Source of the DNA: Candidatus Omnitrophica bacterium UBA6253
GTDB lineage: Bacteria > Omnitrophota > Gorgyraeia > Gygaellales > Profunditerraquicolaceae
DNA length: 64,000 bases
Reading direction: 5' to 3'
NCBI GenBank assembly: GCA_002441245.1
Contig: DJVP01000012.1
Location: forward strand, 325,504-389,503
Part shown: one piece after another, positions 4,246 through 55,100 of the stretch
How the letters are laid out: every line of letters starts with the position of its first letter
How positions within the stretch are numbered: the first letter of the stretch is position 1
Notes under the pieces: model-generated
The model's input: the letters and a program-made list of their open reading frames with translations, nothing else
Databases searched by the model: none
What the model was told of the DNA's origin: nothing
Translations under genes and position numbers: made by a program

Positions 4246-5124
4246 CTAATGGCCTTTCTTTGAAAAACGATATTGAATAAATGAAATTGCAACCAGCACC
4301 ATGCCGAAAGTAATCCCTTGCGCGCAGGCATAACCAAAACGCGATGAGCCGCGCATGGAAGCCAGGATCCTTAAAACCGGCACTGACGTATGGCCGGCGA
4401 ATTCACCTCCCACAAGACTGACAATTAACACAAATACCTGCATGGTACCTAACACTGTAAGAATAGCAACCAGCACCATAACCGGGACCATCAAAGGCAT
4501 AGTTATTTTCTTAAATGACTGCCAGGCGCTGGCTCCATCCACGCGGGCAGCCTCATAAAGCTCGCGCGGAATAGTCTGCAGGCCGGCAAGAAAAATAAGG
4601 AACCCCCAACCAAACCCTTTCCAGCAATGCACTAAGGCAACAGTAGTAAGAGCGGTATTCGGGTCAGATAACCAATTGTGTGCCAGATTGCCAAACCCCA
4701 TGCCGATAAGCATACGATTAATAATATTTGCCCCATCAATATCATTGATGATAAAACGCCAAGCCATACCAACGACTACTTCTGATAGAACCGGGGGAAT
4801 AAAAAAGATTACCCGGTAAAAATTCTTCATTCTTATTTCACGATCACATGCCAAGGCAAGCATAAAAGCCAGGATATTTTGAAAGGTAAGCGCAATCAAA
4901 GTAATATAGGAAGCATTCCACATTGACTGCCACCAGTTGCTATCTTGCAGGAATATCTCTTTAAAATTCTGCAGCCCCACGAATACTCTGGTAAAAGAAA
5001 TCCCATCCCATTCAAACATCCCCAGCTGAAAAACCCAAATAAATGGAATGATGTAAAAAACGGAGAATATAGTTACTGCGGGCAATACAAAAGTATAATT
5101 TTCTATTGCATCCCTTATTTTCAT
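4246..5124 (-). CDS. Carbohydrate ABC transporter permease (MalF/UgpA-like).
   Basis: 292 aa. EAA motif: LYEAARVDGASAWQSFKKITMPLMVP. There is a 4-nt overlap with the upstream SBP gene. Confidence 0.8.
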   Translation of the reverse strand: MKIRDAIENYTFVLPAVTIFSVFYIIPFIWVFQLGMFEWDGISFTRVFVGLQNFKEIFLQDSNWWQSMWNASYITLIALTFQNILAFMLALACDREIRMKNFYRVIFFIPPVLSEVVVGMAWRFIINDIDGANIINRMLIGMGFGNLAHNWLSDPNTALTTVALVHCWKGFGWGFLIFLAGLQTIPRELYEAARVDGASAWQSFKKITMPLMVPVMVLVAILTVLGTMQVFVLIVSLVGGEFAGHTSVPVLRILASMRGSSRFGYACAQGITFGMVLVAISFIQYRFSKKGH

Positions 5125-7587: not shown

Positions 7588-7679
7588 ATCCCCTCCTTAT
7601 CTAATTCACTTGATACCTAACATGCTGATATAAGGGAAGTTAACAATATTATCCCTTACTTTATTAAATTGTCCACTGA

Positions 7680-34100: not shown

Positions 34101-37100
34101 CGCAAAAGAAAATTCTGCACCGATTTCAAATATTGCTTCATTTTTCTGTATCTTAAACAAAAGGCCGCTATTCATTCTAATGCCGTTGTTTTTAATACGC
34201 TCTAACTCGCGCCCTATGAGCTTTTCATTAAACAAAGCTGTATATTGGGAAAGTTTTCTTTCTTCGTAAGATAAAAATCCCTCTCTAATAGCAATCAAGA
34301 ATCTCAGGTTGCTAAGAGAATCTGCCTGAATCGCTGTTGCAATGTAACTGCTCAATCTATCCAGAAAAGCAGGAGGAAAATGGCTGGATAATAGCTTCTC
34401 TACCAGATATTCTAAACAATCGAGGTCCCTGCTTAATATTAAAAGTTCTATATCCGGCATTTTGGTTGATTTTTCCTTTTTTCTGTTCTTATTTTTTTGC
34501 TTAGCTCCACTATCGCCTTTTAACGCAGAGAGGTATTGCTCCAATTCCTGCTTCTTGCTTTCAAGAGCAGATTTCCAATCCCCTATAGGCATCCCTGCTC
34601 CAAGCGTAAAAAACGCCCGTAATAAATCCTCTTCTTTTGCCTGAAGATATATGTCTCTTATCAAATTAATAATTCCCTCCTGGCCCTGGAAATTGTTCCC
34701 AAGAAAGGCAAGAAATTCTTTTCTTTTTCTTTCTTCCAGCCCAAGGAGGCTTCGAAATAAATCAGCGATTTGCCTTTTGTCCGAAACAAGTACCGCGCAG
34801 ATAATTTGGCTTATTTTCTGCTGCTGGCCCATGTCAAAATAGCCGCTTGCTGTCTTAAGGAGAAACTTCAGGGCGTCTTCAGCCAAATCAAATCTTGCGG
34901 CTAACAAGCATATATTTACATAATCAACAACCAGCCTCACATGCTGTTTTTCAATACGGCCCTTAGCCCCCTCCATATCTATTCCAGCTATCCTGAAGAT
35001 CTCCCCATAACCTGCGCTTATATTCAGGAATATCCCAGATTTATCCAAGACCCTGCGGAATGCCGTCAGCGGAAGGATTATCCTGTTTCTTATATCATCA
35101 ACCATGCCTTCAAGCTCTTTCTTGGATGCCTTGGAATAAAAAAGCACCTCTTTCCGCAGGGTTGCTATGTCTTCGTTAGCATATAAATCATATGCCATGG
35201 TATGCCCTTCATGGACTAAAGCGACATTAAAATATGTATTCAAAAGATGAAATTCAAAATCTTCTTTAGGGATAGATGCAAGCAATCTTTCTACTGCAAT
35301 CCTGTATTTGGCTATTTTGCTCCCTTGCTCTATACTCATAAATATTATTTTTATATAACAGTTTGCGACTTTCTTTGATATATCAGCAATTATATCTTCT
35401 CCCAACAAAGGCTCTGCTTTTAATAAAGACTTTTTGGCTTTAATATACGCCTCTGCTGCCTGTTCTGCAGCCAAAAGCGCTCCCGGAGCGTTATTATCCC
35501 TCAAAACTATGCTTATATCGTAATGCGCCTCGCAGGCCATCCATATATTCCTGAAATAAAACTGCTGTCCTTTGAGGGCCTTTAATAACGTTGCACTGGG
35601 GATAAGCGAATAGAGGCGGTCCAGGTAGGGAGTGGAGATCGCTTCTCCATTATTGCCTAAGAAAGAAATTATTTTCTTAAGAATATCCCTGCCTGCCGAT
35701 AAGTAATCAATATCCTGCTTAATTTGCCCCTCGTTATAAAGATAAGCTGCAACGCTGTGAAGCGTAAAAAGCACTCTTTCTTCCTGGCCGGGTACATTGC
35801 TTATTAGAAGCTTAAACTGTTCGACATCTTTATTATGCCCGGGCTCAAACTTGAATGTTTTAGCCGCGATATCCGTAAGAACATCTGCCCCTAAGCTTGA
35901 AAGGCCCCCTATATCTTCCGAGGCAAAATAAACAAGAAAATCCAGAAAAGCGCTTCTGTATGAGTTTATGTCCTGGAAATTCCTGGGTGTTATTGCGGAG
36001 AGCTTATTTTGTATTTCATCTCCGTAAACAGGGCTTGAAATAGCTTTTTCATAAATCCGTGTTTCCGCTGCCTCCGGCTCAACAGTTTGATAATACCTGT
36101 TGATTGCAGCCAGTGTGATTTCGTCTTTTTCGCCTGATAAAGCCTCGGCCTTTATTTCATCCAAAACCTCAGATCTGGTCTTTAAAATATCGTCTTTATC
36201 CAGCAAACCCTCAATCCGCTTTTCTATCTCTAAGACTAACTCATCAATACTTAAACAACCGCTTATCAAGCCTTCTTGCTTGGCCTTCCTTAAAAGAGGA
36301 AGGAAATCAGCTTTTTCAGAAACTTTCATATCCACTCCCAACGCTATGGAGGACTTCTTTATTAAATCCCACAGGGAGCTGTATGAAGCCCTTCCCTGCT
36401 CTATTATAATCTCAGGCAGGCCCTTTCCGCAGGCTAAGAGCTTTAATGCCTCTATCTTGGAAAAACCGAATTTTTCCTGTTTAACTTTCTGCTGCAAACC
36501 GGATAATTCCAAATCCTTATCTAATTGCCCTTTAGACTGTAATGATTTAATTAATTTAAGGGAGGTTGCGTACGGCTTAGTTTGATTTCCTTTCTCAAGT
36601 ACTATCTTAATCCCCATTTTTCCAGCTCGCCTCTTGATATACGCAGGCCCGCATATTATGTCGCTCCTTGATATTTCCAACCTACTGTTAATCTCTTCAA
36701 AGGCCAGCCCCTGCGCCCTTAACAATAACGCCTGTATCTGCAGATGGGAAAGAAATACCGGATTCTTTTGCGGCAAAGAATGCAGTTTTTGCTCAGCAGC
36801 CCTTAGGATTTTTGCGGCAACTCCCGGGCCAAACCCTTTCTCCTGAATCCCCAATTTTCTCTTGATACCGCTGATATGCCTCTTGTTCGCATCTGTATGA
36901 ACGCGCCTGGATACGGCGATATCCCGGGATCTTGCCTTGCCTTTCTGCATCAATGCCAGGATATCTTTTTCCGTGTCGGTTAAAGGATTAACCTCGATGT
37001 CGGGATAAATCTGCCTTGCTTTTTCTATTAATTGAGCACGCACCTTCTTAATATTATGCTCTAAACCAAAGGCATCGAGTATAGAATGCACAATCTTTTT

Positions 37101-40100
37101 TACTGTGCCTTGATGGCTCAGGTGCAAAATACTGCCTATTCCTTTATAGGATTCGTTCTGGCACAAAAGCTTTAAGGCAATAAGCTGCCGATCGTTAAGT
37201 TCGCATGATTCCCCTGGCATTAATTTCTCCTGCCCGGCCAGCTTAATCTTTACAACCGGGCTGGATGCCTTTTCTTGATCGCTTAATCTGCTTATCGGCA
37301 GGGGTAAACCGACAACCGTGCATTTTTCCCGGCCATCCCAGTCTTCAAATCCAGGGCTTAATCCTCTATTACCCTCGGGGACCACCTTTAAATCGATAAA
37401 ATATTTCCGGATCAATCTGCGCAAATAATCCCTTCCTTTGCGCAATTCCAGGATATAGACAAAAGTAACTGTCCAATTCATGCGCAATGCCTCCCGGTGT
37501 AAAAAATCAAATATTGTTGAACCAATACCAATATATTCCCGGCCGATACGGCCATAACGGGTTTCTATAGACACTATTTCTATATTCTCAACCTGATAAT
37601 CCAGGCATGCCAGAAGCCCGTTTCCTCTGATAAAAATAAAATCCCCCTTGCTGGTAATATTTTCAAACCCTAAGTCGTAGAAAAGTTGCTTTCTGATTAA
37701 GGACTCCCTGGGCCTTAAATCATACTTATAATAATCAGGCACCTTCAACTCTATGCTTAATGAAGGTTTAAGTATATTCCTTAAAAATATGACATCCTGG
37801 CCCAATTCCTCTTTAGTATCATAAACCGGGCTGCTGCTAAATGCCCCGCCGGAAAGAAACTTTTGCTCCCCACCAGCCACGGAAGGTAAAGCAAAATCAC
37901 TATCATCTTTCCAACGGGGCATAACAATTCCTTTTTCTTTTAATATCCGCGCCAAAATCAGCTTGCCTCTTTCAATTCTTTGCCTGATTCCTTCCCTGCC
38001 AATATCCCACCTTGCAAAGCCTTCATCTTTCAGCGCTTTCTTTATCTCATTAGCCTTCCCGGAGTGCTGGCCCATCAGGATACTTAAAACAGCAAGAAAT
38101 AAATCTTCTGCCTTGCTGATATCCTTCCCCTTATACTCTTTATATCTGCCGATAATATATGCGATTATTTCTTTTTTCTCTAAACGCTCCAGAGGATTCT
38201 CTGTTTTATTATCCGCAAACATATCCAGGAGGGTAAGTCCATCGCTATCATCACCAACCGGGGTATCTATTGATAAGCCCTCTATACGTATTGCCTCAAT
38301 TTCATCCGCAATTAATTTTTTTATGGATTCATCGGGAAACCAATTATAAAGAAGTGTGGAAAGCCTGAACCCCTTATCAGGATCGTATAACGCTACTACA
38401 TCACGCATATTGGAAAAATCCAGAATTGCCCTGTTGGTGTAGAAAATATTCTCCAATAACCTTCCGTATAAATCCAAATATCCTTTATACTGGCTTTTTA
38501 TTATCTTTTGGATACGGAATATTATTATTTTCATTCCTATAATTGCCAGTATTTCGCGGGCTGCCGCGTTCCCATTAAGGCATTCCCGGCCTAATACCCC
38601 CTCTTCTTCTCTTGTCGGCCATCTATAGCCGTCATACATACTACTGATCCCGGAGCCATTTTCATTATCATAATTGACATAATTTATACCCTTTAAATCC
38701 GGAAGAGAACGAAAATCACTATATTTTGCTTCCCATTTTCTCTCAAACGGCTTTCTTCCCATTCTTTTCTTACCATTACCATTCTCTTCTTTGCTTGAGC
38801 TATTATCATTTTGGCCATAAAGATTAACAAATACGCCATAAAGCAATCTTACTTCTTCTAAATCCAGTGCCTTTTCCACATTCAGCTTAGCGAATATGCT
38901 CTTCTCCAACCGTAAATCGGGTGAGCCTGATTTTACCTGGCTAAGCAAATCTAATTCTTCCCTGCTTAAGCTTTTAATGTTTTCTTTAAACTGGATGAAT
39001 AGATATTTAACTCCGGGCAGATACCCTTTATCTATCGCGTATTGGATGCTGCATAACCTTAACCCTTCTTCCAACTCCATAGCTGTATTAATAATATCTT
39101 TTTCGGATATTTCACCGTCTTTAAGCGCGAACATTATGATTTCGGATATATTCTTGCCTTTTTTATCAATACCCATGGCGCCACATATAAAAAGATTATA
39201 CCTGCGGATTGAATCAGCGCCTTCTTTTATCTTTAACAGCCTGCAAGCCATATCCCTGTCAGCAACCAGAGCCTGGATTAATAATGCCTGCTTAAGTTTC
39301 AGGCTGAGCTTTTTCCTTTCGAACATAAATTTAAATCTCTTGAATTCTCCCGCGTCATACTCGATATAGCCTTTTTCCGCGGCACTTACCACACATTGCA
39401 CCAATGTCTGGTAACGCGGTTCAAGAAATTTCGGAATATCTAAAATACTCCTAATCTCACCGACCCTCTCCCTCACAGTAATAAATGATTGGCCTAAGCA
39501 AGCAGCAATATCCTTATATGATATCCGCTTATTTTCTAAGCCTGCTTTTATAGCTGTCTCCAGCAATTTTATCTGGGTCTTAAGCAAAGGATTCGATTCT
39601 TTAACTTTTCTTGCCTCTTCCTGCGCAGGCTGTTTAGCAACCGATTCATTTCTTTGTAAAATATAAATTACCTCAGCTAACTTATCCCTGCTGATTATTC
39701 CTCCCTGCCTGTTAACCAGTTCATATTCCTGCTTATATACTTCCATAAAAATAGGCAATAGTTTGCCGTAATTGCGGGAGGTGCCTAATTTTTTAGTTAC
39801 CCAATACAGCCTGTTACGTAATACCGGCTTGCTACCGATTTCCTTTCCTGCTTCTTTTAAAGGCCTGCCGCTTAGGATATCTTCCGCGATTACCCCCAGC
39901 GTCATTAACTCCATCTCGGTGAGCCATTCCGCGCCTCTTTTGGACGCCCTATAGACATATTCCTTGATCTGGCTAAGATGGATATAGTGGGGGAAGCTTT
40001 CAAAATAACGCTCACTATCCTTATACGCCGCAATTATCAAAGGAGCGACCTGCCCTCTTTTTTTGTCTACACCCAATTTAACGGTGATACTGGTTAGCAA

Positions 40101-43100
40101 TCTCTTAAGGGAACCAAAACCTACATTCAATTCCCTGCAAATATCTTCGTTTGATTTTCCCAAAACAAGCAACACTAAAACTGTTACTTCCCTATCATCA
40201 AGCTTATTAGCGCAAGGAGATGAACTTAAGGAAGAATCGAAACCGGCCAAATGATTTTTTAGCTCGCCTAAATTCTCAATAACAAAATCAAAAGGCTCGA
40301 CTCCATCAAATAGCGCTTTGGCTTTCTCCAACTTACTTTCTTTTTCTTCGGCCGCGGCGAACATCGCCAACCGCACACCCTCAACAGCCTTCCTCAACGT
40401 AACGATTACTTTTGGAGCATCATCCACTATTAAAACTTCTTCTGCAGAGAATCCATTAGCCCTTATTATTTGAACCATTTCATCTATCTTAACCTTTATC
40501 GTGTCAGATTTTTTATTCTGCCGCTTAAGAAGAAACCTTGCTTCTTTAAAATATTTATTTAATCCGGAATATTTCAGTATATTTCTTTTTTCATAGCCTC
40601 CGGCAGAAACTATATAAAGGGGTAAAACCTGGCTTAGTCTTTCAACTGTTTCCTTGGCACCCGGAGTCAATAAAGAAACGGCTCGAGTTTTCAATATATT
40701 TTTTAACTGGCTGTCTCTTAATTCTTCATAGTCTTTGATATATTCCATAACAGGCTTGGCTTCTATTTTACCGCGCTGTCTGATAAGTCCGGATACCTCC
40801 GGCAATGTTTCCCTGGTAGGCGTACCTAAAACCCTCTTAAAAAATTCATTTATCCATGGCTCAAGCCAAAGAATATCTTTAAGTTCAAATCCGGCTTCCT
40901 TGAACATTTTATAAATTATCTGCCTGAGCACATCACGGCAAACAGGTATTGTATCCGCAATCACGCCGTCAAAATCAAATATAATTGCTTTAATTCCATC
41001 AGGTGAAGGAGAAACCGCTTTCTTCTCATTTGAAAAAAATACCGGCGAACTGGAGTGAAACATCGATGAAGCGCCCGATAAGTTAACACCATCCCTATTG
41101 TCGTTTAAAATTGATTTTGCCTTCTGGTAAAGATTGCTTATCAGGGAGTCACCGACGCTTTCATTATTCCGCAAGAAATCCGAGGATAGCCAGCCTACTT
41201 GTTCATTTTGGGAAGAAAAACTGTCCAATATGCCACGCACATAATATTCTAGATCTATAAAAATACCTGTATTCTCAATTTCCAATACATTTGTTAGTAA
41301 CTTCGACAATCTAATCCGCATGCTTTTTTCACAATTAAGATAACGGGCTGCGACGGATAACGGCAATCCTAAATCGCATTCTCTTTTTAAAACGGCCTGA
41401 CGGCGGGATTCTTCATCCCTGTTTACATACCATACTCCATCTAATATTTTCCCGACTTTTAGTTGGAACAGGTTGGCTGAATCTATAAAAATAGGCTTGC
41501 GGCTCCCATTATTAGAATCATGCAAAACCTTCAGTATCTGTTCATAAACCAAATGCCTTCTAGGTAAACAAGAAATGCGTATATAAAACCAATACAACAG
41601 AGGTGACAATGAAAAAATGTATTTTAACCTATTTATAATAATATTTTTCACGCAGCTTGAAAAATCGCCATAGACTACAGAACAGCCTTCTTTTTCTATA
41701 ATCCCGGAAACAGTGGTTTTCCCCACCCCCATAAATCCCGTAATGCCTATAAATTGAACTCCCAATTTTTCCTTTAAAGCAACAATCTCTTGAATCGTTT
41801 TCCTGCGACTCAATATTCTCAACGGCGAGCTGGCGGCTTGATAATTAACCATGCTTATTCCCCCTTCACAAACCTTGTATTCATGAAGAATACGCAGTAC
41901 CTCTGCTACGCTCCAGGCCTGCGAAGAAGTCCCTCCCGGATATTGAGGAACGGACAGACCAATCTCTCCGCCATTAAATACCTCGTCTATTGAGCCATGC
42001 GTAAAAAGCCTAAGAAGCAATTTCTCTGTTTTAAAACGCACCTCTTCTTTAATCTTTTCTTCCGCTACGCCTTGCCATCGTCTGACTCGCACCAATAAAT
42101 CTATCTCAGGACCGATAAGAAACGGCCAAGCTGTACCCTGGTGATAAGCAAAATCCTTGTGTTTACCAAAATCAACTGAATCTGGCCCTGGCTGACTGTT
42201 AGTATCATAGTGCGAATGGTAGTTGGAATCGCGTGGAGATAATGTTCGCGGGCCATAAGACGTACTTAAATCCTTCATGCAGGCATCTAACACCTGAGCC
42301 TGCTCCTCCATAGGTAAAATATCCGGTGCCACGCTCAAAGCAATAAGTTGGTTCGGCCGCAAAGCAGCTCCATGATTGGCGCTATCCGGTGTCCCATCCG
42401 GACCAATGACATCAAACAAACAATTTTCCCTCTCATCTAGCTCTCCGGGATTTTTTAAATGGTTGTTCCAAAATTTATCCCTGAAATTACTTTTTACCTT
42501 TTCTGCAAGTTCTTTCCAGTTCGGCTCATTCTTTTCCGGTTGCAGCCCGAATTCTTCCATTGCTTTAGCCAACCAGCGAAGGTTGGAATACCATAATCCT
42601 TGAATCTCTACGCACTTACCGTTACGCGGAGTTACGGGTAAGGTATGCTCCGGGATAGCGTCCATCCAAGTGCTCTGCGCAGGGCTAATGATTAACCCAT
42701 CTTCTTTATCAGCATAAATGCTTTGCCGCTGACCGTTGCGGTCATGATACCCTGTACCATTATAATAACCTAACATGACCCGGCGGATTACAGGCAGCAT
42801 TTGTTTAATGGTTTCGAAATCCCCCGTATAATCCAAATATTTATGTGCCATAACATAAACAAACCACATAGAGCCATCCACTGTGTTATACTCCGGATTA
42901 GCCGGGTCAATGATGCGGTTAGGGATCAAGCCATCGCGTTCGAATCTGCTAAAACTTTCGAGAAGCGCCCGTGCTTCAGGATGAAGCCATTTCTGCAGTA
43001 ATAAGCAACCGGTATAACTGATAAAAGTATCCCTTCCCCATTGCTCAAAGAACCAATCGCGGCTGGCGGCCCAAATTTGAGGTACTCCATTAAATGACTT

Positions 43101-46100
43101 AACAAAGGAATCCGCTGCGGCGCTTAAAGTAGGCATAATACAAGCTATAGCCTCTTCATCTTTCCAGACACTCTTTCCATCTTTCTGCAAACGCGGGTAA
43201 ATCCGGGTCGTAAATTTAATAAATGGCCCCAAGTCATAACGGCAGCGTTGATAATAATCCGAATCACCGGGGAGAGGTATTCGATATCTCCAGAGTGACT
43301 CACGAAGCACTATCTCTTCAGGTTTTAATTTTAACGAACGGTCATATCTGTCAAAGCCCGTGGCGTAGATCGTTTCACCCCATGACGTAGTTATGCGCAC
43401 AACCTTGATAAGCTCGTAATCTCCCCATAAATCACCCATAGTATAAATAATAAACTTGGAAGCATTGGGAGAAACTTGCGCCTGTAATAAGTTATTGAAT
43501 CCAACCATAAAATCCACCGCATTCCTGTGATACCAACGTGAATGGTCATCATGGGTACTAAGCCTCTTGGCATTTCCATCCATAACTACAAATCCAAGAC
43601 GCTCGGCATCGCCTGCTTTACCTTCATAGGCTTCAGCTAAAGGAAGTTTACCGCGTTCAAGATAAACCTTAATCAATGCAGCCGCAAAATCCTCCCCATC
43701 TTCATCGCCGCTGGCTAACTGTCCGCTACCAAAATTCCAGCTAAAATGCAAAGCATCAGTACGGCCTCCGGCAAAACCGAAATCCAACCAATGCATAATA
43801 GGATCAAGTTTAAGTTTATATCCATCTTTACGCAGGTTTTCCCAGTTCCAAAGGGCCAAATCCATCCATCTTTCATTGGAACATTCATTTACAATCCCCG
43901 GATAGCGGTTATAAATATCACGGAAAAATTCTTTATGATGCCGATAAACATCCACACTGTCTTTAGCGCGAAACATAGCATCGTCAAGAAGTAAATATCC
44001 ACCCATGGTATTCACATCCCGGACAGCTTCTGCCAATTGCTGGTACCCAATCCATTGACTATATTTGTACCTATTCTTTAATTCCGAGTAGTATGGAGTT
44101 ACTCTTACTTGATTTACCCGCTCATCCTCCCATTCCCACCAGGGCCTACTGTTGAAAATTAAGTGCAGGACCATAAAATCGGCAAAATCATCCAACCAAA
44201 CCTTATCATGATTTTTGCAGAACTCCTTAAACTGCCCGGCCCGGTTAGTGTTATTAAGAATACATTCCCGTTGAAAAACCTCAAAGGCTTTCTGCAAAAT
44301 TGTGCTTTCGCGATAGCGCAATTCCGCGTGATTAATTTCTCGTGAAGGAAAAGTTAGCAATGGCCCGAATTCCTTTTTATGTTTGATCACCTCCGGAACT
44401 TCTGACCAGTCATTATAATCAGTGTTAACAGCATATTGGCAAATTGAGCCATAAGGGCTCTCCAATAGAATAGGATAATGCGGAAGCATAACCGCAACCC
44501 TTACTCCATTCGACAGGAGTTTTGATTTAAAATGCGGAGCGATATCAGTCCATTTTCCGATTCCGGGATCATTCTCCGGCCTGCGTAACGCGCCAATACT
44601 CATTGTCTCAACAATATATGTTTCATCCGGCATCTGCCACCAGGCATCCATAGGTGAGCTGGAAACTAAGAAAACGCTTTCATTCGAAGGCAAAATAAAA
44701 CTACGCGACTCTACCTTTACTAATGCGCCAAGCTCTTTGGAAACAGGAGAGCTTGATTGTCCCGAGATAGAACAACTGCCCTTTTGGAGATTCGCTCTCA
44801 TCTCTTGAGGCGATAACACATTAATCTGAGTATCCACGCCCCAGCCATTAGCCCAGCTAATAACATCTTCTTTGCGTAAGGAGCCATTATTAGTATCCAT
44901 GCGTTCAAATAACGCCGCTGTCAGCCATCCGCTTCTCTTAGGCGAAAACGCAACAGTCCATTTAACGCTATCATTCTCTACTAAGTACTCCCCGGCATCC
45001 GCCTCCACTATGAACCGTTCGCTATTTACATTCTTTACAGGATTAGTAGTCCCCAATATTACCGGCACAAGCTTAGAGCATAACTCGTATCTACGCAGAG
45101 GAATGGTTATCTCAATTTTCATCTTGTGCCCCATTACTACATCCCAAATTCTTTCTTCTGTTTGTTTAACATAGCCCGTTTCTTCAATGATTTTGATTTT
45201 CATCTTGTGATTACTCTGGTTATTGATCTCCTGGCGCGCCTTACAGGTCAACCGGGGTGTCAACGTTACCTCATACTCCTCCTGCCATTTTCCTGATGTG
45301 GTTATAACGCGGAACTTCTTCTCTTTACCATTCATGCATATTGCTTTCCTAAATATAACCACACCTTCTTCCGGTTTTTCTTCTACTTGATTAAACTCCT
45401 CAATAACTCCTTCCGGAGTTTCTATCCATGCGCTTACACGCTTCAATCCATTCAGGCGAACCGGTACTACTAATTCTAACTCGTTAGCATTCCTGGACAT
45501 CACACATACCCTGCTTCCTCCCGTACATGGTTCGCTATCCAGTATAACCTTACCCGAATCTAACTTCTGCTTTATCCGCAGATAATGTTTCTCATCCTGC
45601 GCAAAGGTTACTTCATGCTCCGGCTGTGCGAATCCTCCAAACTCCTTCAATAATATCTGATGGATGAACTTACCAGGGTTCTTGGCTATCAATTCCTGCC
45701 TCTTTGCTTCCTCTTTACCGACCATCTTATCCCATTGCCGCGCGTATTCTGCTGCCGTCAAATTTACATCCACGCTACGGAAAAGCTTGAACCCGTCTAA
45801 CAAATGCTCAGTTAATCTACCCTGTTTCCCTGCTTCCAATACCCATTCATACAACTCTAAGTATGAACCCTCACTTGAATCTTTCGGTACAATATTCGAC
45901 CCCCGGACTGACTGACGGTTAGCCAACGCCTGAATCAACTGTATATACCCGTGTAAAGCCGCGCATCCGCCATGCATCCAAGTATGCGCCTCAGTTGACT
46001 CTGCGGCGCCTGTAATTAAGGGGTTGCGTAACTGTGTCAAGAATGACGAATCCTGCATCTGCGGCGCCAGACAAGGCAAAAGCGCAAGCTGCTGATCTAT

Positions 46101-49100
46101 ATCGAATTTCGGCTGATAAATCAGCTTGCTTTTCAGACCATGCACGTTTATCTCTCTGGTAAATCCCAGGAATTGCTCACCTTCATACTTGCTCCCACCC
46201 GGCAATTCTGTACCCATATAATCCTGCACATTACCAAGGATCACAAAGAATTGTCCTCTCTCAATAGCCTTTTTCACATTTTCATCGCTAAACGCGCCAT
46301 CACGACCCCACTTCTCATGTACCCACCTACCGCTGTAACCTGCCCACGGCATATCTTCAATTGCTGCCCAATACGCATCCCAGTCGCCGCTATATTCATC
46401 AGGTAATACTATATTCCACTCTTGAACATGAGACTTTATATAGGTGTTAATATAATACCATTTGCTTGCTCGCACCAATTCCGCGAACATCTCCATCAAC
46501 TCTTGGTCTGTCCGCTCAACGTTATCTACCCAAGCCCACAATTCTTCGTATGTAAGCTTATCCCTCTCCTGCTGGAATTTCGCTTTCTCGAATTTATCAG
46601 CAACACGCATCTTATCATTCAATCGCTCGTAAACATCTTTTGATGCCTGTCTCGCAAAGCGAGATTCGATAAACCGCATTGCAAAATACCTGAGCGTCAG
46701 CCTGCACAGGTCGCCGTTAGTCACCCCTATGCCGGTACTTTCATAAACCTGTGGATCAAATTTCCTCATTTGATAACCGTGTGAATCACTTACGTAATTC
46801 GTAAACCCCCTCCTGAGCATCGTTGCGCGCAACCCCGCGCTCGTCCAATCATAACCTTCATTACCGTGGACTGTCCGTCGCTTCCATAACCATAACCATT
46901 CATCAGGAACACCGGCCTGCTTCAAATATTCTCTGGTTGCCGATAATGTATTCAACACCGTATGTGAGGTACTCCCATAGTAGGCCTCTAATAAAACAGG
47001 TGTCTGGAACTCAGGTAAAAATAAACTCCACGCCGCAGCCGCCACCGTCTGTCCATCATTCAATCCTAAAAACGGTGCCTTCCACAATACCCCTTCTTGC
47101 GCCCGCCGGCCCTCCTCTATTTTATTAACCACCGCAAGGAATGCTTTCGTCGCAAACTCAACTGAATGTGATACCGTTGGATCCCTATGCCGTTCGGCTC
47201 CACAATTGCTGTCATCGTAGCGATATAGAATCTGTGCGTACCAGCCACCTGCATCCCTGAACATGACAACCGGAATACCTTCATCATTTTCAGCCTGATA
47301 TACCAGAACCTCTTCTTTCTTCCCCTGAAATGTTGCCTCTATTCTCATTGTAATATCATCACCCATTTTTAATGGTATAGGCAGCGATCCGTAATCTAGT
47401 TTTTTGTCGATTTCTCTCTCATAGCTTGATCCCCATAAATACCGAGGCTCCACTATTACTACATCGAGACCCATTGCCTTTAGAGCCCTTGCCAAATACT
47501 GCATTACTCTGCCTAATCCACCCTTAAGCTGCGACACTTCTGGAGCAAGTAAATACAATCTCCTGCCCTGTAGATGCTTAAATGCCTCTTCACCCCATTT
47601 CTGTAAATCCGGGATCATATTCAACATTAACAACACCGACTCTGTAAGAGCGCTTCTTTCTGCCACATACTCTAATAAATCTCCGTTAACACTACGGAGC
47701 AAATACTTTACCAACATATCCCTCATTTTTGCATTTAAACCCAGCACGCCTCTCAGGAACGGTTGGCGCGCCTCTACGGGACCAAGCGGGAATTCTTCGG
47801 AAGCCGCGCTATAGCTATTTACCATCTCTGCCAGCGCCTTTTCATTTTTAATCTCTCCCTGCTCATTAAACATTCCACGCAACTCTTCCTCTATGAAGAA
47901 ATTCAACTTCGCCCAAGTCGCTATGGCTTCTTTTTTCTCTCTCAATTCGTAGTGCCCATGTTTATCCCTTGAGATTATTTTCAAATTCTCCAGGTAATCA
48001 AAGATATCCTGGATATGTATTCCGCTTCTATCTCCTATATTGCTAAAACCAAATCGCTCTAATAACTCCATCTCCACTTTCTTACTCATCGTATCATCCA
48101 GCTTTACCGGCAGGCGTCCTTGCTTATCCCATTCAAGCAATAATTCCGCTGTCCCGAATAACATTGCCCAGTATGCCGGCATATTACCTTTATTATCCCG
48201 AATAGCCTGATGTGGTAACGGATATTTTGTATTAATAATTTCTCGTGACAAACCATAACAAATATTATGTTCTACGGGTGAAGAGCAGTTTTCTACCGGG
48301 GAGTTTAAATAAGCGGAAACTTCTGCGGGCGAAGAAACAATAGTTTCCCCAGCCGGCGGGCCTCTCTTAGGCAAGGATTTGGCTATTACATCGGTTTCTA
48401 CTATTGCTTGCGAGGTAAAACCTGAAATCTTCTGAAGGATATGGAGGAATTTATCGTCTGAGATATTAACAGGGCTTGAACCAAAAGAAATCTTATTAAA
48501 AATCTTATTACTATGCAACAAAGGGATTGTCTGGGGGACAGGCTTTTTATCGTTATCTGAAATAATAAGTAAATCCCCGTTTTTAATTAAATAGTCTCCT
48601 CCCCGCTTAAGCCTGCAGACCATGGATAAATCGCCCTGGCTATCGGGAAAATATTCACCTAAGGAACAAACTCTAATATGCGGATCGCTTACATTCAAAA
48701 CACTGGCTATACTATCTATCTTGCTTTCTGAAGGGCTGCGCAGGGCCTTTATGGTAACGGGAGCTTTTATATTGCTCCCCAGTTTGATAACATTTATATA
48801 CTTATATTCGCTAATATATTTTGAAATTATAGAAAATATTTCCGCGGCATTTTCCGCCGCTTCTACCCCTGGTATCACCTCAAATTTTTGATTCTCCAGC
48901 GCGTCAATTTTCTGCAACTTATGAGACCAATATGCCATCTTACCCAAACGCATCTCCCTATAAGTTTTTTGTGAATAAATCTGTATTTCGTATTTTACGC
49001 CAAAGCCGTCTTCAAAATCTATGTGGTATTTTTGTCCCGGAATTACATACCCCCCTTCAAGCTTAATGTCTTTACTGTCTATGTTGCTTGCATTTATATT

Positions 49101-52100
49101 TATACCAAATCTGCCCTTCAAGATCTTTCCGATATACCATACTGCGCCATGCACATCTACATCACTTTCCACGATAACCGTTATCCCCAAGATGTCAGTT
49201 AGGTCTGATATTGAAGTGTATTTTTCGTCCCCCCTATTGATCTTTAACCACGCGGTAAAAGCCTTCTTAACCCTGTTTAAAACAGTTGCCCTTATCCCAT
49301 CTTCATTAAGCCCATTTCTTATATCTTCGGATAAATCGTTTAAATATTTATTGGCATCCGTTCGGCTCCTTCCGATAACTGTTTCGATTTCTTTCTCTAT
49401 AATGTTATGGATACTGCCGGCGTAATTTCTGAATACTTCATCCAGGAAATCCCCGGCCAATTCATCCAAACCCAATCTCTCAGCCAACGGAGCATATATA
49501 CAGGCTATCTCCTCTAACAAATCCTTTTTTCCTGTATAAGTAGAAATACTTATGAACTTATCCGCCAACACCAGATATAAACCCTCGATGCTTTCGGAAA
49601 GTCTTATAACAAGATTGATGCGGTTATTAACGGCTTCCTGGTCTTTGTAATTTAGACCATACGGAAGGTTAATTAATCCGGTCAGCCTCTTTACATAAGC
49701 GATAATTCTTCCTGCCTTAGACTTATCAACCCCCAGCCCTTTAAGTATCCGTTTTATCTCTTTCTCCGAGGAGACCTTATGCAAATAAGCAGCATAAATA
49801 ACTTCTTCCTCGGAGGTAAATTCCAAGGCCTTAGCCGCTACTCTTTTTGTATGTGTAAAATATGTCTCTCCAGAAGAAAATTTCTTGCCCCTGTATTCTT
49901 CGCTCAAGATCTTCTCTATCTGAACAATCCGTTCGCCTCTAATCTCTACCGGTGAACTGGAGTAAAAAGAGTTATTCTTTCTAATATTCCCTATATCCTT
50001 AGCTGAAGAAAGCGATGCCCCTTTCAGAAAGACTACATATGGCCTTTTTTCTAATAAGGGCGCTAATCTCATGGCTGAGTTCAAGCCAGTTGCCAGAACC
50101 ACTCTTTCCTTTAACACTGCCTCCCGGCTCGATAAGAAAGTTATAGCCAGAGAACCAGCCCGGGTATTTAGCATTGATAAAAATCCCTTCAATTGTAGAC
50201 TCAAGGCTAGCGAACTCAAGAACCTGTAAATCGTGCATTTTACTCCTCCTTTGTTAATTAGATTATTAGAAAATAATATCTCTTTCCCTGTAATCTCCAT
50301 CGGCGAGCTAGAAACACCATCTCTCTGAATTAATGACCTTGAAGGCACAAATAAAGAAGCCCCCAAAATCCCGGTGCAGCCAACTATTTCTTTTAGCCCG
50401 TGTATTCGGTCGGCCTCTATTAATATAATATCTCTATATCCCCTGGAATTAAGTTCGTCTTTCAAGGCAGTGAGAATGTTCTTTCTGTTAGAGCTTTTGA
50501 TCAACCATCCGCCTAAAATAAAAATACTACAACCTTTAACGCTTTGCCAGAATTGTCTTTCCAATTCTTCAGGAATATTAACTATTAATTTTCTACCGCT
50601 ACCCTCATAGATCGCAATGATAGCCCGGGATAAATCCATACCTACCTGGTTAAATATCGAGATACTGGATGCCCGAATCAAAGCATCCGTTGAATATGTC
50701 AACTTGCTAAGGGATTCACCGTCAATCCTGTCTAATTTTTGTAAAACAGTATTCTGGCAGGCAAGATTCGCAATCCCCTTGCCGCTAATAAGATCTTCAC
50801 AGGTCAAATAATCCTTAGAAAACTTTCCCTTGCCTTTACGGATAACAATATCGAAAAATTGTTGCGGCCCGGGCATAATAACTACCTGATTATTCTTAAT
50901 GAACAAACCTCCGGCCCCAAAACCGGTGCCGGGAATAATATTAATAATTTTAGGAGCAGTTTTAAGCCTGTCTTTAACCGACGCAAACTCTCTCGAATTA
51001 ATCAAAGAAAGTAAATGGTGTGTCATAGCCAGGCTATGCGCAACGCCGTCATTATTGATAAACACCTGCCATTCTTTGCTTAATCTATCTATTATTTCAT
51101 CTGCGAACTTCAAACGCTCCAAATCAGGCACATTGAAAGCTGTTCCGCTATAAACCAGCCCGTTTTCTTGCCAGGCGCCGGGAGCTGAAATACCTACAGA
51201 CTTTAATAAACGACGACTTTGCATCTGCTTGCTTCTTAAGCCCTCCTTGATCAAAACAACCATGGAATCGATTGCTTCAGGTAAATCAACAACTTTTTCT
51301 CCATTAATAATCTTAAACGGATTCACACAAGAACCCTTCCAGAGAATAATCGGTTCGCCGATAAACTGACCTTTTCTAATTTTTCTTTGAACTAATGCTA
51401 CTCTTATGTTCGTGCCGCCAAAATCAATAGCCGGAATTACAACCGAGCTGATTCTATCCAAGGGATTAGTTAATTCTTGTAATGGTGAAGAGCTGAATAT
51501 ATTACTCGATTCATTAAAAGTTTCAGGCGTCAAAGACCCTAGTCCTTCAGCATCATAGATAATACCAGAGTTAGTTATCTCGGTTTCATCTATGTAAACC
51601 CCTAGTTTGGTTAACCCATAAACAAAATTATGATATATCCACTTTCCGCCGTCTGTTAACGGCAGATCTTGAGACATAGGGAAAGTTTCTAATCCCTGAA
51701 GACTATAACTGATCCAACTAGTAAACAATGCATGAATAGGATAATAATACGGCTGGATAATTACGGGATTATAAACATATAAACCAGCTAAAGGCTGGTC
51801 TTTTATTGCCCGATACAGGTCTGTTCTAGTAATTTTTCCTTCAGCAACGCCCATATCGATGATTTTCGGCAGCATCTTTGCATAAAGATAGTATAAAAAC
51901 CTCGTATTATCGTGCGTCTCGTTGTAATGCTTATATTTTATAAATATTGCGTCCTCGCAAATAGTGCCGATAGCATCAATTTCAACCGGATTAAGCAGTA
52001 GTAGGTAAGCGCTTTTAGTGTGACCGCCCCCGGGGGAAATAATTACTTTTACCCCTTCACGGATAGCAAGCTCTCTAAAATTGTAAACCTCTGCACCCCC

Positions 52101-55100
52101 CTTTGTAATACTTTGCGGTCTCCAGAAATTGCCTATCCTTCTAAGATCATTGGCGAGAATAATGTTTCCATCTATGCTTATATTAGAAATATTATCTACA
52201 ACAATCCCTTCATCCAAAGCCACCTTTCGCTCAGGAGCAAGGCGCATAGAAAGCATGTCCCAGCGCTTTTCGCTGAATTGCTTAATTATTGTATCCAGAT
52301 GAGAGATTATTCTCCCGGGGATTACGTCCTTAATCCTCTCCTCTATGGATAACGGCTTAAGCCAGAAATTACCTCTTATACAATTTTCCGGAATAATATC
52401 AGGTAAAAATTTTCCAACGTCTACAAAAATCTTCCAGCCATAAGGCAAAGCTTCGTGAATTACAGTAAAACAACAAAGTAATCTATTTAAAATAATCATT
52501 AGATTAACATCATCAATAATAATAACGGCTGGCAAAATATCTTCCATGATTTTTTCAAGATTTACAATCCTCTCTTCCGCTACCGCTAATATCCTAAGCA
52601 ACACAGTCTCAATTCTTTCTCTTAAAACTAAATTATCTCCAGTCTTCTTATTAATATGTTTATTTAGTAAGATAAGAAGAGGCTTGTTTGCCAAAAGCTC
52701 TATCTGTTTCTTGACCTGACGCATCCCTGACGGAATAAACCATCTATTTAAACCACTCAGGAGACCAAATTGACCATTCTCATAGATAGCCTCATCAATA
52801 TATGAATTTGCTTTAAAAATATCCTCCGGGCTATGTATATCCGGACCAATAATACTCTTTAATCTCCCAATAGCAGTCAGCCTTATGTTAAGAAGAGATG
52901 AGGACGAATGTTTATATTTATATAGAGACTGGACCCTGGCAAAGTTTAGTTCCGATAAATCTCTTACAACAATATCTGCACCTGCCTCTTCCAATTTCTG
53001 ACTGTTACCCACCCTGTCTATACCAATTATTAAACCGAAGTTCCCTCTTTTAAAAGCCTCAACACCTAAAGGAGCATCCTCAAAACCGACACACTCTTCA
53101 GGTAAAACTCCAATTTTCTGGGCAGCTAACAAGAATATCTTCGGGCTAGGCTTACCTTCGCCAACATCTTTCTTAGTTATAATGACTTTAATAATATTAT
53201 TGAAAACGCTTTCTTTTAAGTAATAAGAAAAAACTGTCGCGGAGCCTACTGCTATGCGGATATTTTGTCGGTCTAATTCTTTTATAAGAGATGCAGTTGA
53301 ATCAAATAACGGGACTCCATTGCTATCCCTAACGAACTCGCTAATCGCTTTTTCTTTCCGTTGGTCTAATTCCTGAATAAATCCCTTACTTGCACCGGGG
53401 AACATTGCTTTAAAGGCATCCTTACCGCTTACTCCATTGGCAAATCTATTATATAGATTCAAATCAAAATACTTACCTTCCCTCGCTAATATTTTTTTGT
53501 AAATCTCAAACCAAACCAATGCCGTATCCGCTATCACCCCGTCAAAATCAAAGATCGCGCCCTTAAGAACACTAGCAGGGTTTTCAATGATAGATGAGGA
53601 AGATTTTAGATCTAACTGAGAACTTGCATAAAGCGCAGCGCCTATAGCGCCTCCGTATTGCCTATCCACACTCGACAAAGAAACCGTAAACCGCCCTTCA
53701 TTAGCTTCACTCAATAAATTATTGATTCCTTTTAATATTCCTGTTCCGGCTTCCGCTACCGTAATACCTCCTGTAATTATGAATTTTGTATCCTGCCTCA
53801 TCCTATTCATCAAGCGCATCCAGGAATAAATTGAATGTGATAAATCACAATAAACTCTTCGCGCCTCCGCATACCCGATTTGATCTCGATTCTTTAATAA
53901 CTGACTTATCTCTAAAACACTAAGATTATCTTTCCCTGCAATACCAGGTAAAGCGAACTTCTGGGAAATCCTTAAGATACCACTGACTCCGGCAAAAGCT
54001 GCAAAACATCCTTTAACGCTGCATCCTTGGTCAAATGGAGCATCCTCTCTAAGGTTGACCACAAAAGCTCCGCTCTGTTCAATTCGACTCATATCTATTA
54101 ATCCACCTTCAAACCGAGCGCATCCTACTCCGGTACCTAAAGCCAAAAGCACTCCATTATCTATTTTGTCATAATTAAGTGCGGCTACGGCAAACGAGGT
54201 TACATCATTTAAAACCCTTACACATTCAATGTGATATTCTTTTTTTAGTTCTTCCAACATGCTATGTAAATAGCCATAGTCTTCCCGGAAATCCGCATCC
54301 ACTCGCTCATGAGCCTTCCCCCATTTGTATTCATAATTAACCAACCAAATAATGTTACTTTCAATCGGGTTTACTACTCCCGGCAATGATATCCCTATGC
54401 CATCTATCTTATAGCCCTTAGACATATCTTTAGCTAAATTCATTATCAAGTCTTTCAGTTCTTTCCCACCGGTAGTCACGGTATCAATCGTAGTTTTTTC
54501 CATTACTAACCCATCCCTAACAACTACGGACTTTATTGTTGTTGCTCCGACATCGATTCCGATAAAGGCCCCTTTCATCATTTCCGGAGGTAAAGGCCCT
54601 AACAAATGCCTGACCAACTTATCCATCAAAAACTGATTTTCCTTACTGTCATACGTTAGGAAACTAACCTTATTCCCGAAATTCGCGAAATATTCCAACC
54701 TCTTGAAATTATCTTTAAGATGGTTCGCTAAAAGATAAAATACCGCCTCCGACATCTTCTCATTGGTTGAGCCAACGTATACTTTTTCCGCGCTAAAAGC
54801 AACAATGTAATTGTAGAGGAAAGAAGATATGTAATTAAGAACACTCTGTCTAATTGGACCTTCAAAGAGTTCTTTTACAAGAGGAATTGAAACCTCTCTC
54901 ATTTCAAGCCCAGACTGTAAAGCAACCAGTATTCTATGGCTATTAGGATATTTGTTAGTAATCAGGGCAAAAAGCATATCCCAATCATTAATATCTCCGG
55001 ATGTCAGCGCCTCTTTAATAAGGTTTTTTAAACCAGATTCATCGCTTAATGCCGGAACAGTCGGATCAAAAATCTTTGTTTTATTTTTCTTGACGATATA

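What the first reader, a model, noticed from the sequence alone, without database searches (positions are those of the whole stretch)
44664..44741. Short 27-45-aa peptides bounded by junctions on both sides (possible released peptides or spacers).
Three places have junction-peptide-junction arrangements. The first is 44664-44741 (SKELGALVKVESRSFILPSNESVFLV). The second is 11248-11334 (LGKRGMISNVSGGSLGATVSLKLVITKSR), which loosely resembles the first: both have ..LGA.V......I......V.SSSP. The third is 48335-48468 (NISDDKFLHILQKISGFTSQAIVETDVIAKSLPKRGPPAGETIV), followed by even shorter EVSAYLN and ENC segments. Under a processing model these would be liberated as small peptides (signalling peptides, chaperone-like spacers, or leftovers comparable to viral 6K/2A peptides).
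Basis: partly seen in the sequence, partly recalled or inferred. Interest (0 to 1): 0.65.

Follow-up and report, generated by a model that had tools for sequence, protein, structure and literature searches.

The report
Leftover spacers in giant bacterial polyprotein
The three short peptides really are caught between repeated 'SSP' joints of an enormous multi-enzyme gene from an uncultured Omnitrophota bacterium, but related genomes gain and lose such stretches, so they look like evolutionary leftovers rather than purpose-made signalling peptides.

Summary
The window is almost filled by one minus-strand ORF (7680..63938, over 18,752 aa, open at the window edge). It strings about 50 unrelated whole proteins together through a five-residue joint, [S/V/A/G/C]-S-S-P-[V/I/L/A/M]. 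There are 52 SSP against 3.2 expected. The three junction-peptide-junction arrangements are real (coordinates off by at most 1 nt), and I found five more. The claimed P1/P2 resemblance is chance (p=0.25).

Ten related Omnitrophota loci, nine of them distinct, carry the same architecture. Whole modules are gained, lost and reordered exactly at the joints.

Its neighbouring subtilase-like module has an 82.5%-identical ortholog (dN/dS 0.19) that begins exactly at the joint, with no P2 before it. No short peptide has a detectable homolog in the related fragments or in Pfam.

One relative shows a 216-aa module cut to 90 aa by an in-frame internal deletion. Tiny tandem joints (VSSPVSSP, AASSP) recur.

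Best reading: these are non-conserved spacers or scars of cassette turnover. They would be released only as by-products if the joints are cleaved, which is unproven. P1 and P3 could not be compared with any relative.

The parts
7680..63938 (-). Giant modular ORF (over 18,752 aa; open at the window edge). About 50 whole-protein modules are joined by xSSP[VILMA] joints.
   Evidence: ORF list, no upstream stop, translation and motif statistics, Pfam domains of modules.
44652..44744 (-). P1: the 31-aa inter-junction segment VSKELGALVKVESRSFILPSNESVFLVSSSP. It lies between the glycogen-synthase-like module and the GH77+GDE module.
   Evidence: No Pfam hit. No homolog in relatives. It sits where the stand-alone homolog P0001 has its signal peptide plus linker, but the similarity is not significant, p=0.35.
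44745..44756 (-). Upstream SSSP joint of P1 (aa 6395-6398).
11235..11336 (-). P2: the 34-aa inter-junction segment VLGKRGMISNVSGGSLGATVSLKLVITKSRSSSP, directly before the S8-like module.
   Evidence: Absent before the orthologous S8 module in L018. Absent from L007 and L010. Not covered by any hit of the exhaustive S8 search. Its DNA is confirmed by an independent assembly, L001, 100% identical over 13,392 nt.
48327..48470 (-). P3: the 48-aa inter-junction segment after the RelA/SpoT-like module.
   Evidence: No Pfam hit. No homolog in relatives.
48276..48326 (-). The 17-aa piece AEVSAYLNSPVENCSSP. It contains a degenerate joint, NSPV.
18147..18227 (-).
11337..11456 (-). A cluster of short pieces upstream of P2: a 33-aa segment (ARLQREL...DGDFSSP, with an internal NSPV) and the 7-aa AASSSSP.
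   Evidence: 'DF(Y)SSP-AASS(S)P' is shared with L007 and L010, while the rest of the 33-aa piece is not.
12012..12023 (-). Tandem joint VSSP|VSSP (a 4-aa 'segment'), conserved in L007 and L010.
10446..11234 (-). S8 (subtilase)-like module, the candidate processing protease, bounded by joints on both sides.
   Evidence: Pfam Peptidase_S8 at 20.6 bits against a cutoff of 21.8. PDB subtilisin and PCSK9 hits at E=0.006-0.1. Stand-alone S8 homologs at E down to 2.6e-8, which themselves score 77-90 bits on Peptidase_S8. D29/H35/N128/S182 are invariant. The L018 ortholog has dN/dS 0.19.

Best explanation
P1, P2, P3 and at least five further short stretches are non-conserved spacer or scar segments lying between neighbouring copies of the joint motif xSSP[V/I/L/A/M]. 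They sit in a giant modular ORF of an Omnitrophota bacterium.

The ORF is a string of complete proteins (enzymes, regulators, a subtilase-like protease). Related genomes gain, lose, duplicate and reorder these as cassettes, exactly at the joints and always in frame.

Short inter-joint stretches arise as by-products of that turnover in three ways:
- In-frame internal deletion of a module. This is shown in a relative.
- Duplication or slippage of the joint itself (VSSPVSSP, AASS(S)SP). This is shown, and it recurs.
- Retention of a captured gene's leader or upstream sequence. This is inferred.

If the joints are protease sites, which is inferred and not shown, the short stretches would be released as small by-product peptides. 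That would resemble the small leftover peptides of viral polyproteins. There is no evidence that they have a function of their own.
For: Architecture
- The joint motif is highly non-random and is a protein-level signal.
- No joint falls inside a Pfam domain envelope.
- Module 13 ends '...NYQAA|SSP' where the stand-alone homolog P0001 ends '...NTLQAA*'. Whole proteins are therefore concatenated.

Turnover
- The window and L007, L010 and L018 share modules at 73-94% aa identity. Homology breaks exactly at the joints, and different modules are inserted at the same joints.
- The architecture persists in nine distinct related loci, down to 58% identity of the PilZ neighbour.

Non-conservation of the short pieces
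- P2 is absent before the 82.5%-identical S8 ortholog in L018.
- P2 and most of the 33-aa piece are absent from L007 and L010.
- Each relative has its own unrelated short pieces, for example 24 aa in L010, 9 and 58 aa in L017, 18 aa in L021, 23/39/16 aa in L024 and 29/13/28 aa in L025.
- No short peptide has a significant match anywhere in these fragments or in Pfam.

Decay seen directly
- L017's 90-aa segment is window module 36 (216 aa) with a 126-aa in-frame internal deletion.
- L010 has a 24-aa piece where the window and L007 have a 287-aa module.
- Joints themselves decay to SNSP and SSSL in L010, and to NSPV inside the window's short pieces.

Composition
- The short pieces are rich in S, V and A and poor in W, Y and C. 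This is linker-like.
- Their codon usage is still coding-like: 0.17 against bulk 0.22 +/- 0.04.
Against: - P1 and P3 could not be compared with any relative, so for them the conclusion rests on analogy.
- One class of short joint-bounded peptide is conserved: the C-terminal tail after the last joint. It has dN/dS 0.22-0.45 among L007, L010 and L013, and a shared ...YGIM.I[KR] end in more distant relatives. Not every short piece is junk.
- The origin of P1-P3 from a particular deleted module or leader could not be traced. There is no residual similarity.
- The short pieces contain no in-frame stop in 197 codons, but this is required simply to keep the downstream modules in frame.
Confidence: 0.6

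Rival explanations
1. The joints are not cleaved at all. xSSP[VILMA] would be a conserved inter-domain linker or a modification site (for example proline-directed phosphorylation or glycosylation). The giant protein would work as one multi-enzyme scaffold, and the short stretches would be longer linkers that are never released.
For: - No computation here shows cleavage.
- Tandem joints 4-9 aa apart (VSSPVSSP, AASSP, ASSP) are conserved or recurrent. They make no sense as sources of peptides but are natural in linkers.
- The short pieces have linker-like composition.
- The S8 module was seen in only one related fragment, L018. All those fragments are incomplete.
Against: - A strictly conserved 5-residue motif flanked by unconstrained residues looks like a recognition site, not a flexible linker.
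- Modules are complete proteins whose stand-alone homologs end exactly at the joint.
- Modules mix membrane proteins, sigma/LuxR-type regulators and metabolic enzymes, which are unlikely to work tethered.
- An embedded subtilase with an intact catalytic set is under purifying selection.
Confidence: 0.22
2. The short peptides are purpose-made products. They would be released as signalling or regulatory peptides, or as decoy substrates or inhibitors that time the processing protease.
For: - They are bounded by full joint motifs on both sides.
- P2 lies directly before the protease module.
- A different short joint-bounded peptide, the C-terminal tail, is conserved in relatives.
Against: - P2 is not conserved while its enzyme neighbour is.
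- The peptides show no mutual similarity.
- There are no family hits and no homologs in relatives.
- The number of short intervals is not above random placement.
- The window itself has lost the conserved tail through an 88-nt deletion.
Confidence: 0.1
3. P2 is the propeptide (intramolecular chaperone or inhibitor) of the S8-like module. P1 is the relic signal peptide of the captured GH77+GDE gene.
For: - P2 is immediately N-terminal to the S8 module.
- P1 sits where the stand-alone homolog P0001 carries its signal peptide and linker.
- Stand-alone S8 homologs carry signal peptides or membrane anchors at the equivalent place.
Against: - The L018 ortholog of the S8 module has no P2.
- The stand-alone homologs of this S8 subfamily have no propeptide.
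- P2 is 34 aa with no Inhibitor_I9 hit.
- The similarity between P1 and the P0001 leader is not significant, p=0.35.
- Neither peptide has an uninterrupted hydrophobic core.
Confidence: 0.05

Closest known systems
Small leftover or spacer peptides of viral polyproteins (flavivirus 2K, alphavirus 6K, potyvirus 6K1/6K2, picornavirus 3B, coronavirus nsp11). From my own knowledge.
   Same: Short stretches (about 10-60 aa) are bounded on both sides by the polyprotein's recurrent junction motif. They lie between full-size enzymes, and a protease is encoded inside the same ORF.
   Different: - The viral peptides are positionally conserved, and most have a role (membrane anchor, signal sequence, primer). 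Here P2 is absent from the nearest relatives, and none of the peptides is hydrophobic enough to span a membrane.
- The host is a cellular bacterium.
- The joint motif xSSP[VILMA] is not a known viral site.
- Cleavage is unproven.
Giant genes of Omnitrophota (West-Roberts et al. 2023, bioRxiv 10.1101/2023.11.21.568195).
   Same: The phylum is the same (NCBI names) and the ORFs are far over 10,000 aa. That paper speculates that embedded C39 or S8 peptidase domains cut the giant proteins into several products.
   Different: - That paper describes membrane-anchored adhesion and cell-wall-degrading giants with repetitive beta-rich regions.
- It states that no cleavage points are known.
- It does not describe concatenated housekeeping-type enzymes and regulators, a recurrent SSP joint, cassette turnover or short inter-joint peptides.
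Neisseria/Haemophilus IgA1 protease precursor with its small gamma-peptide released between adjacent autoproteolytic sites after Pro. From my own knowledge; not checked here.
   Same: It is a bacterial precursor cut by its own serine protease at short Pro-containing sites. A small peptide is left over between two neighbouring sites.
   Different: - It is a secreted autotransporter with three or four parts, not about 50 cytoplasmic-type modules.
- Its protease family is S6, not S8.
- The site sequences are different.
Cyanobactin-type RiPP precursors processed by subtilisin-like PatA/PatG. From my own knowledge.
   Same: Short variable peptides are flanked by conserved recognition sequences, with an S8 protease encoded alongside (the P2 situation).
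   Different: - RiPP precursors are small stand-alone genes with dedicated modification enzymes.
- Here the peptide is inside an ORF of over 18,752 aa and is not kept with the protease in L018.
Subtilase N-terminal propeptide (Inhibitor_I9).
   Same: P2 lies immediately N-terminal to an S8 catalytic module and ends in the joint that would occupy the substrate cleft.
   Different: - P2 is 34 aa rather than about 77 aa.
- It has no I9 hit.
- The orthologous S8 module lacks it.
- Stand-alone homologs of this subfamily have no propeptide.

Membership tests
Spacer or leftover peptide of a proteolytically processed polyprotein | Bounded on both sides by the polyprotein's recurrent junction motif | tested here: met
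   Full xSSP[VILMA] motifs flank P1, P2 and P3. The motif occurs 52 times against 3.2 expected.
Spacer or leftover peptide of a proteolytically processed polyprotein | The junctions are actually cleaved, so the peptide is liberated | not testable with these tools
   Only circumstantial evidence is available. Whole proteins are concatenated, and an embedded S8 module has an intact D/H/N/S set under purifying selection.
Functional small polyprotein product (viral 6K/2K/3B type, signalling peptide) | Conserved in position and sequence among related genomes that keep the flanking proteins | tested here: not met
   P2 is absent before the 82.5%-identical S8 ortholog in L018, and absent from L007 and L010. 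P1 and P3 are untestable because no relative covers them.
Functional small polyprotein product (viral 6K/2K type) | Hydrophobic membrane-spanning core | tested here: not met
   GRAVY is 0.0-0.5, and charged or polar residues interrupt every hydrophobic run.
2A-type ribosome-skipping peptide | C-terminal D(V/I)ExNPG|P motif | tested here: not met
   No NPGP occurs in or next to P1-P3 (direct reading).
Subtilase propeptide (Inhibitor_I9), for P2 | An alpha/beta prodomain of about 70-90 aa that is co-conserved with the catalytic domain | tested here: not met
   P2 is 34 aa with no Pfam hit at E up to 10. The ortholog in L018 lacks it. No hit in the exhaustive search covers query residues 1-34.
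RiPP precursor core peptide (cyanobactin-like), for P2 | A small stand-alone precursor gene whose cassettes travel with the S8 protease | tested here: not met
   P2 is embedded in the giant ORF. The S8 module occurs without P2 in L018.
Relic Sec or lipoprotein signal peptide, for P1 and P2 | A basic n-region, an uninterrupted h-region of at least 10 residues, and detectable similarity to the homolog's leader | tested here: not met
   The position fits. There is no uninterrupted hydrophobic core, and the similarity between P1 and the P0001 leader gives p=0.35.
Peptidase S8 (the module next to P2) | Pfam PF00082 match at or above the gathering score | tested here: inconclusive
   The window module scores 20.6 bits against a cutoff of 21.8. 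The L018 ortholog scores 21.9. Linking homologs P0004, P0006 and P0016 score 77-90 bits.
Peptidase S8 (the module next to P2) | Catalytic Asp-His-Ser in that order, plus the oxyanion Asn | tested here: met
   D29, H35, N128 and S182 are invariant in the alignment with stand-alone S8 homologs.
Omnitrophota giant genes as described (Archaeovorin or Dockerin type) | A domain content of adhesion, carbohydrate-binding and cell-wall-degrading regions with many transmembrane segments | tested here: not met
   Pfam shows kinases, epimerase, carbamoyltransferase, HAD, RelA/SpoT HD, glycogen enzymes, CofD, radical SAM, GNAT, methyltransferases, and LuxR and sigma-70 regulators, compared with the descriptions read.

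The most novel reading that the evidence does not exclude
The giant ORF is a genuine self-processing bacterial polyprotein, cut at every xSSP[VILMA] joint by its own embedded subtilase. Under this reading P1 and P3, which could not be compared with any relative, are deliberately released regulatory or signalling peptides. They could equally be decoy substrates that time processing. They would be analogous to the conserved C-terminal tail peptide seen in relatives.
Probability: 0.08. Interest if true: 0.85.

Novelty: new variant of a known kind. Interest (0 to 1): 0.45.

Why it matters
The short peptides themselves look like by-products, but they are useful in two ways.

First, they are evolutionary footprints. 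They show that this giant gene grows and shrinks by in-frame gain, loss and decay of whole-protein cassettes at a fixed five-residue joint. I could not find that mode of gene organisation described for bacteria in the searched literature.

Second, they are the cleanest experimental handle on the central open question, whether the joints are cleaved. A 26-44-aa peptide with both ends defined by joints, or semi-specific peptides ending in ...SSP, would be unambiguous in peptidomics or N-terminomics.

If processing is confirmed, the parent system would be a cellular counterpart of viral polyprotein expression. It would also answer the question left open for Omnitrophota giant genes, whether they are cut into many products.

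Tried and rejected
- **Homologs of the P1 region.** The word-indexed protein search found only a stand-alone GH77+GDE protein (P0001, 37-40% identity) and two ordinary MalQ proteins. The upstream gene next to P0001 is unrelated to module 11.
- **Homologs of P2 plus the S8 module.** The word-indexed search found nothing. The exhaustive search found only distant stand-alone S8 proteins, and none covers P2.
- **Metagenome scans for the P3-P1 region.** A single-sequence query found nothing. An alignment query gave L008 and L009, which are distant and frameshifted and were of no use.
- **Viral-contig scans.** Nothing found.
- **AlphaFold2 of P2 plus the S8 module without an alignment.** pLDDT was 41.6, so the model is unusable. 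No fold search was attempted.
- **Trace of a deleted module in the 33-aa piece.** Only about 40 nt around 'DF-SSP-AASS' align to the end of an L007 module, which is not above shuffles.
- **Trace of module 43 in L010's 24-aa piece.** Only the first few codons (about 29 nt including the preceding joint) are homologous.
- **P1 as a relic of P0001's signal peptide.** p=0.35.
- **P1/P2 mutual similarity.** p=0.25.
- **RNA or repeat explanations for the three loci.** There are no Rfam matches in the window and no direct or inverted repeats.
- **Literature searches.** Searches for bacterial or Omnitrophota polyproteins found no description of this architecture.
Full report
**What is in the window**

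Nearly the whole window is one minus-strand ORF, 7680..63938, of 18,752 aa. In-frame translation of 63846-63998 has no stop, so the gene continues beyond the window edge. Its first module is a uridine-kinase/PRK domain truncated at profile position 107.

Pfam finds a chain of unrelated, mostly complete proteins:
- PRK, a DUF4922 domain, phosphomannose isomerase, ribulose-phosphate 3-epimerase, carbamoyltransferase
- ROK kinases, HAD hydrolases, a RelA/SpoT-type HD domain
- starch-synthase-like, GH77 and GDE_C (glycogen metabolism)
- several LuxR/GerE regulators
- CofD, PrmA-type and other methyltransferases, radical SAM, GNAT
- a C-terminal sigma-70 region 4

NCBI names the neighbouring PilZ gene's organism 'Candidatus Omnitrophica/Omnitrophota bacterium'. 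The downstream 13.4 kb, which includes P2, is 100% identical in an independent NCBI MAG contig, and the parts covered by ENA and Logan assemblies are 99.9-100% identical.

**The junctions**

SSP occurs 52 times against 3.2 expected from composition, and SSSP 29 times against 0.22 expected. The codons used vary synonymously, so the signal is in the protein and not in the DNA. Only five positions carry information: [S/V/A/G/C]-S-S-P-[V/I/L/A/M]. No SSP lies inside a Pfam domain envelope.

Module 13 (GH77+GDE) aligns end to end with a stand-alone 975-aa homolog, P0001. It ends '...NYQAA|SSP' where P0001 ends '...NTLQAA*'. The ORF is therefore a concatenation of whole proteins with the motif in place of the intergenic gaps.

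**Checking the observation**

Cutting at SSP gives 53 segments. Five more short pieces exist: 27 aa at 18147-18227, 33 aa at 11358-11456, AASSSSP, VSSP, and the 17-aa piece after P3.

The suggested P1/P2 resemblance is not better than shuffles (p=0.25). The only pair above chance (p=0.017) shares a degenerate joint, NSPV.

The count of intervals of 50 aa or less (8) is what random placement of 52 joints would give (6.6 +/- 2.3). Pooled over nine polyprotein sequences (the window ORF and eight related fragments), however, segment lengths are bimodal. There are 18 of 127 at 60 aa or less, eight of them under 10 aa, and only two fall in the 60-90 bin. The main mode is 160-500 aa.

None of the short pieces hits Pfam at E up to 10. 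No Rfam family or DNA repeat explains the loci. Their codon usage is coding-like but at the low end of the bulk (0.17 against 0.22 +/- 0.04). They are rich in S, V and A and poor in W, Y and C.

**Relatives**

Direct searches with the P1 and P2 regions found no related polyprotein. A genome scan with the C-terminal part found L007, at about 83-90% nt identity. Orthologs of the adjacent PilZ gene led to nine more loci (eight of them distinct): L010, L013, L015/16, L017, L018, L020, L021, L022, L024 and L025.

Every one ends in a giant ORF with the same SSP architecture, 5-17 SSP per fragment of 1,400-4,300 aa. This holds down to relatives whose PilZ is only 58% identical.

Module content and order differ greatly. 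Between the window and L007, L010 and L018, shared modules are 73-94% identical (dN/dS 0.19-0.36), and homology starts and stops exactly at joints. Different modules are inserted at the same joints. Inside the window, modules 17-18 and 40-41 form a duplicated two-module block, and modules 27 and 28 are a tandem pair.

**What the relatives say about the short peptides**

1. **P2.** The S8-like module after P2 has an ortholog in L018, 82.5% aa identical with dN/dS 0.19. Its homology begins at SSP|V(S/G)GY and ends at SSSP|V. It is preceded directly by an unrelated 386-aa module, with no P2. L007 and L010 keep the modules on either side but lack P2, the S8 module and most of the 33-aa piece. L010 has a 317-aa module at that very joint.
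2. **No homologs.** None of P1, P2, P3 or the other short pieces has a significant match in any related fragment. Each relative has its own unrelated short pieces.
3. **Decay is visible.** L017's 90-aa segment is window module 36 (216 aa) minus an in-frame 126-aa core. L010 has a 24-aa piece where the window and L007 have a 287-aa module, and beyond the joint only the first few codons remain homologous. Joints decay too: SNSP and SSSL in L010, NSPV inside the window's short pieces, and SSSAI, SSSSI, SSSSL and SASPV inside long window segments.
4. **Tiny tandem joints recur.** VSSPVSSP is found in the window, L007 and L010. AASSSSP, AASSP and ASSSP occur at one orthologous spot. ASSP and AASWPSSSP occur in L022. 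These look like slippage or duplication of the joint itself.
5. **A counter-example.** The peptide after the last joint is conserved in L007, L010 and L013 (dN/dS 0.22-0.45), and more distant relatives share a ...YGIM.I[KR] C-terminus. In the window an 88-nt deletion has removed its joint and put it out of frame.

**The protease next to P2**

The 263-aa module scores just under the Pfam S8 cutoff (20.6 against 21.8 bits). Its L018 ortholog is just above it (21.9). PDB hits are all subtilisins or PCSK9 at E=0.006-0.1.

The exhaustive search finds stand-alone homologs at E down to 2.6e-8, and these are solid S8 proteins at 77-90 bits. In the alignment, D29, H35, N128 and S182 are invariant.

The stand-alone homologs carry a signal peptide or membrane anchor and C-terminal membrane segments. 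They have no propeptide. The window module has neither membrane feature. It is a plausible cytoplasmic processing enzyme. It travels as a cassette like the other modules, and it was seen in only one related fragment. An AlphaFold2 model without an alignment was unusable (pLDDT 41.6).

**Interpretation**

What is shown:
- The arrangement exists and the joint motif is real.
- Whole proteins are concatenated.
- Cassettes turn over at the joints.
- P2 is not conserved.
- A module decays into a short piece in a relative.

What is inferred:
- The joints are protease sites.
- P1, P2 and P3 arose by module decay or from captured leader or upstream sequence. P1 sits where P0001 has its signal peptide and linker, but the similarity is not significant. 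L018's last segment reads through into a lipoprotein-type leader, which shows how such sequence can be captured.

I rate 'non-conserved spacers or scars, released at most as by-products' at about 0.6. The main rival, that the joints are uncleaved linkers, gets about 0.2. Purpose-made peptides get about 0.1.

**Novelty**

The searched literature contains no description of SSP-joined polyproteins. The Omnitrophota giant-gene preprint speculates about cleavage by embedded C39 or S8 domains, but it states that cleavage points are unknown and describes a different domain content.

The parent architecture is therefore the surprising thing. The short peptides are a minor corollary of it and resemble the leftover peptides of viral polyproteins. 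I score this finding 0.45 and call it a new variant of a known kind.

Noticed in passing
window 63846-64000 (minus strand): The giant ORF has no in-frame stop up to the window edge. Its first module is a PRK/uridine-kinase domain cut at profile position 107. The gene is therefore longer than the 18,752 aa listed.
   Followed up: yes
window 7680-63938; L007, L010, L013, L015/16, L017, L018, L020, L021, L022, L024, L025: Ten related Omnitrophota loci (L015 and L016 are near-identical) end in giant ORFs with the same xSSP[VILMA] joints but different module sets and orders. Homology between relatives starts and stops exactly at joints. I found no description of this architecture in the searched literature.
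   Followed up: partly
window 10446-11234 (minus strand); L018 4223-5011: An embedded subtilase-like module has invariant D/H/N/S and an unusually short Asp-His spacing shared with a stand-alone membrane-anchored S8 subfamily. It lacks that subfamily's signal peptide and C-terminal membrane region. dN/dS is 0.19 against the L018 ortholog.
   Followed up: yes
window 7606-7700 (minus strand); L007 12746-12925: An 88-nt deletion relative to L007 removes a final 'ASSP' joint and frameshifts a 52-aa C-terminal tail. That tail is conserved in L007, L010 and L013, and a ...YGIM.I[KR] end is shared with more distant relatives. The tail remains open in the -1 frame in the window.
   Followed up: partly
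window 7683-7690 (minus strand, just before the stop TAA at 7680-7682): A canonical in-register -1 slippery heptamer, T_TTA_AAA, sits immediately before the stop codon. It lies at the point where a -1 shift would restore the conserved tail (ISGQFNKVRDNIVNFPYISMLGIK*). The chance expectation is about 7% for the 10-codon overlap (0.0071 such heptamers per codon in the ORF), so it may be coincidence.
   Followed up: partly
window 35-38 kb and 15.5-17.6 kb; 25.9-27.0 kb (minus strand): There are paralogous modules inside the ORF. Segments 17-18 and 40-41 form a duplicated two-module block (33% and 64% identity). Segments 27 and 28 are a tandem pair (37%). Segments 16 and 20 are distantly related LuxR/sigma-like modules.
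   Followed up: partly
giant ORF aa 1981, 3446, 3678, 12849 (window about 57,990, 53,600, 52,900, 25,390); L010 aa 1810-1825 and 2320-2330: Degenerate joints (SSSAI, SSSSI, SSSSL, SASPV; SNSP and SSSL in L010) appear to subdivide the longest 'segments'. The motif can therefore decay, and the true module count exceeds 53.
   Followed up: partly
L018 about 5012-5464 (last segment of its giant ORF): The ORF reads through 34 residues into what looks like a complete lipoprotein-type leader (MARKQFQILPFLMIAVLLLCSGGC). This is a possible snapshot of a downstream gene being captured.
   Followed up: no
L005 10001-12928 (P0001): The closest stand-alone homolog of the GH77+GDE module carries a Sec-type signal peptide, whereas the window's copy is internal to the polyprotein and has none.
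   Followed up: partly
L007 record title compared with the names of P0027, P0034 and P0040: The taxonomic labels conflict. ENA calls the closest relative 'uncultured Planctomycetales bacterium', while NCBI names the same gene neighbourhood 'Candidatus Omnitrophica/Omnitrophota'.
   Followed up: no
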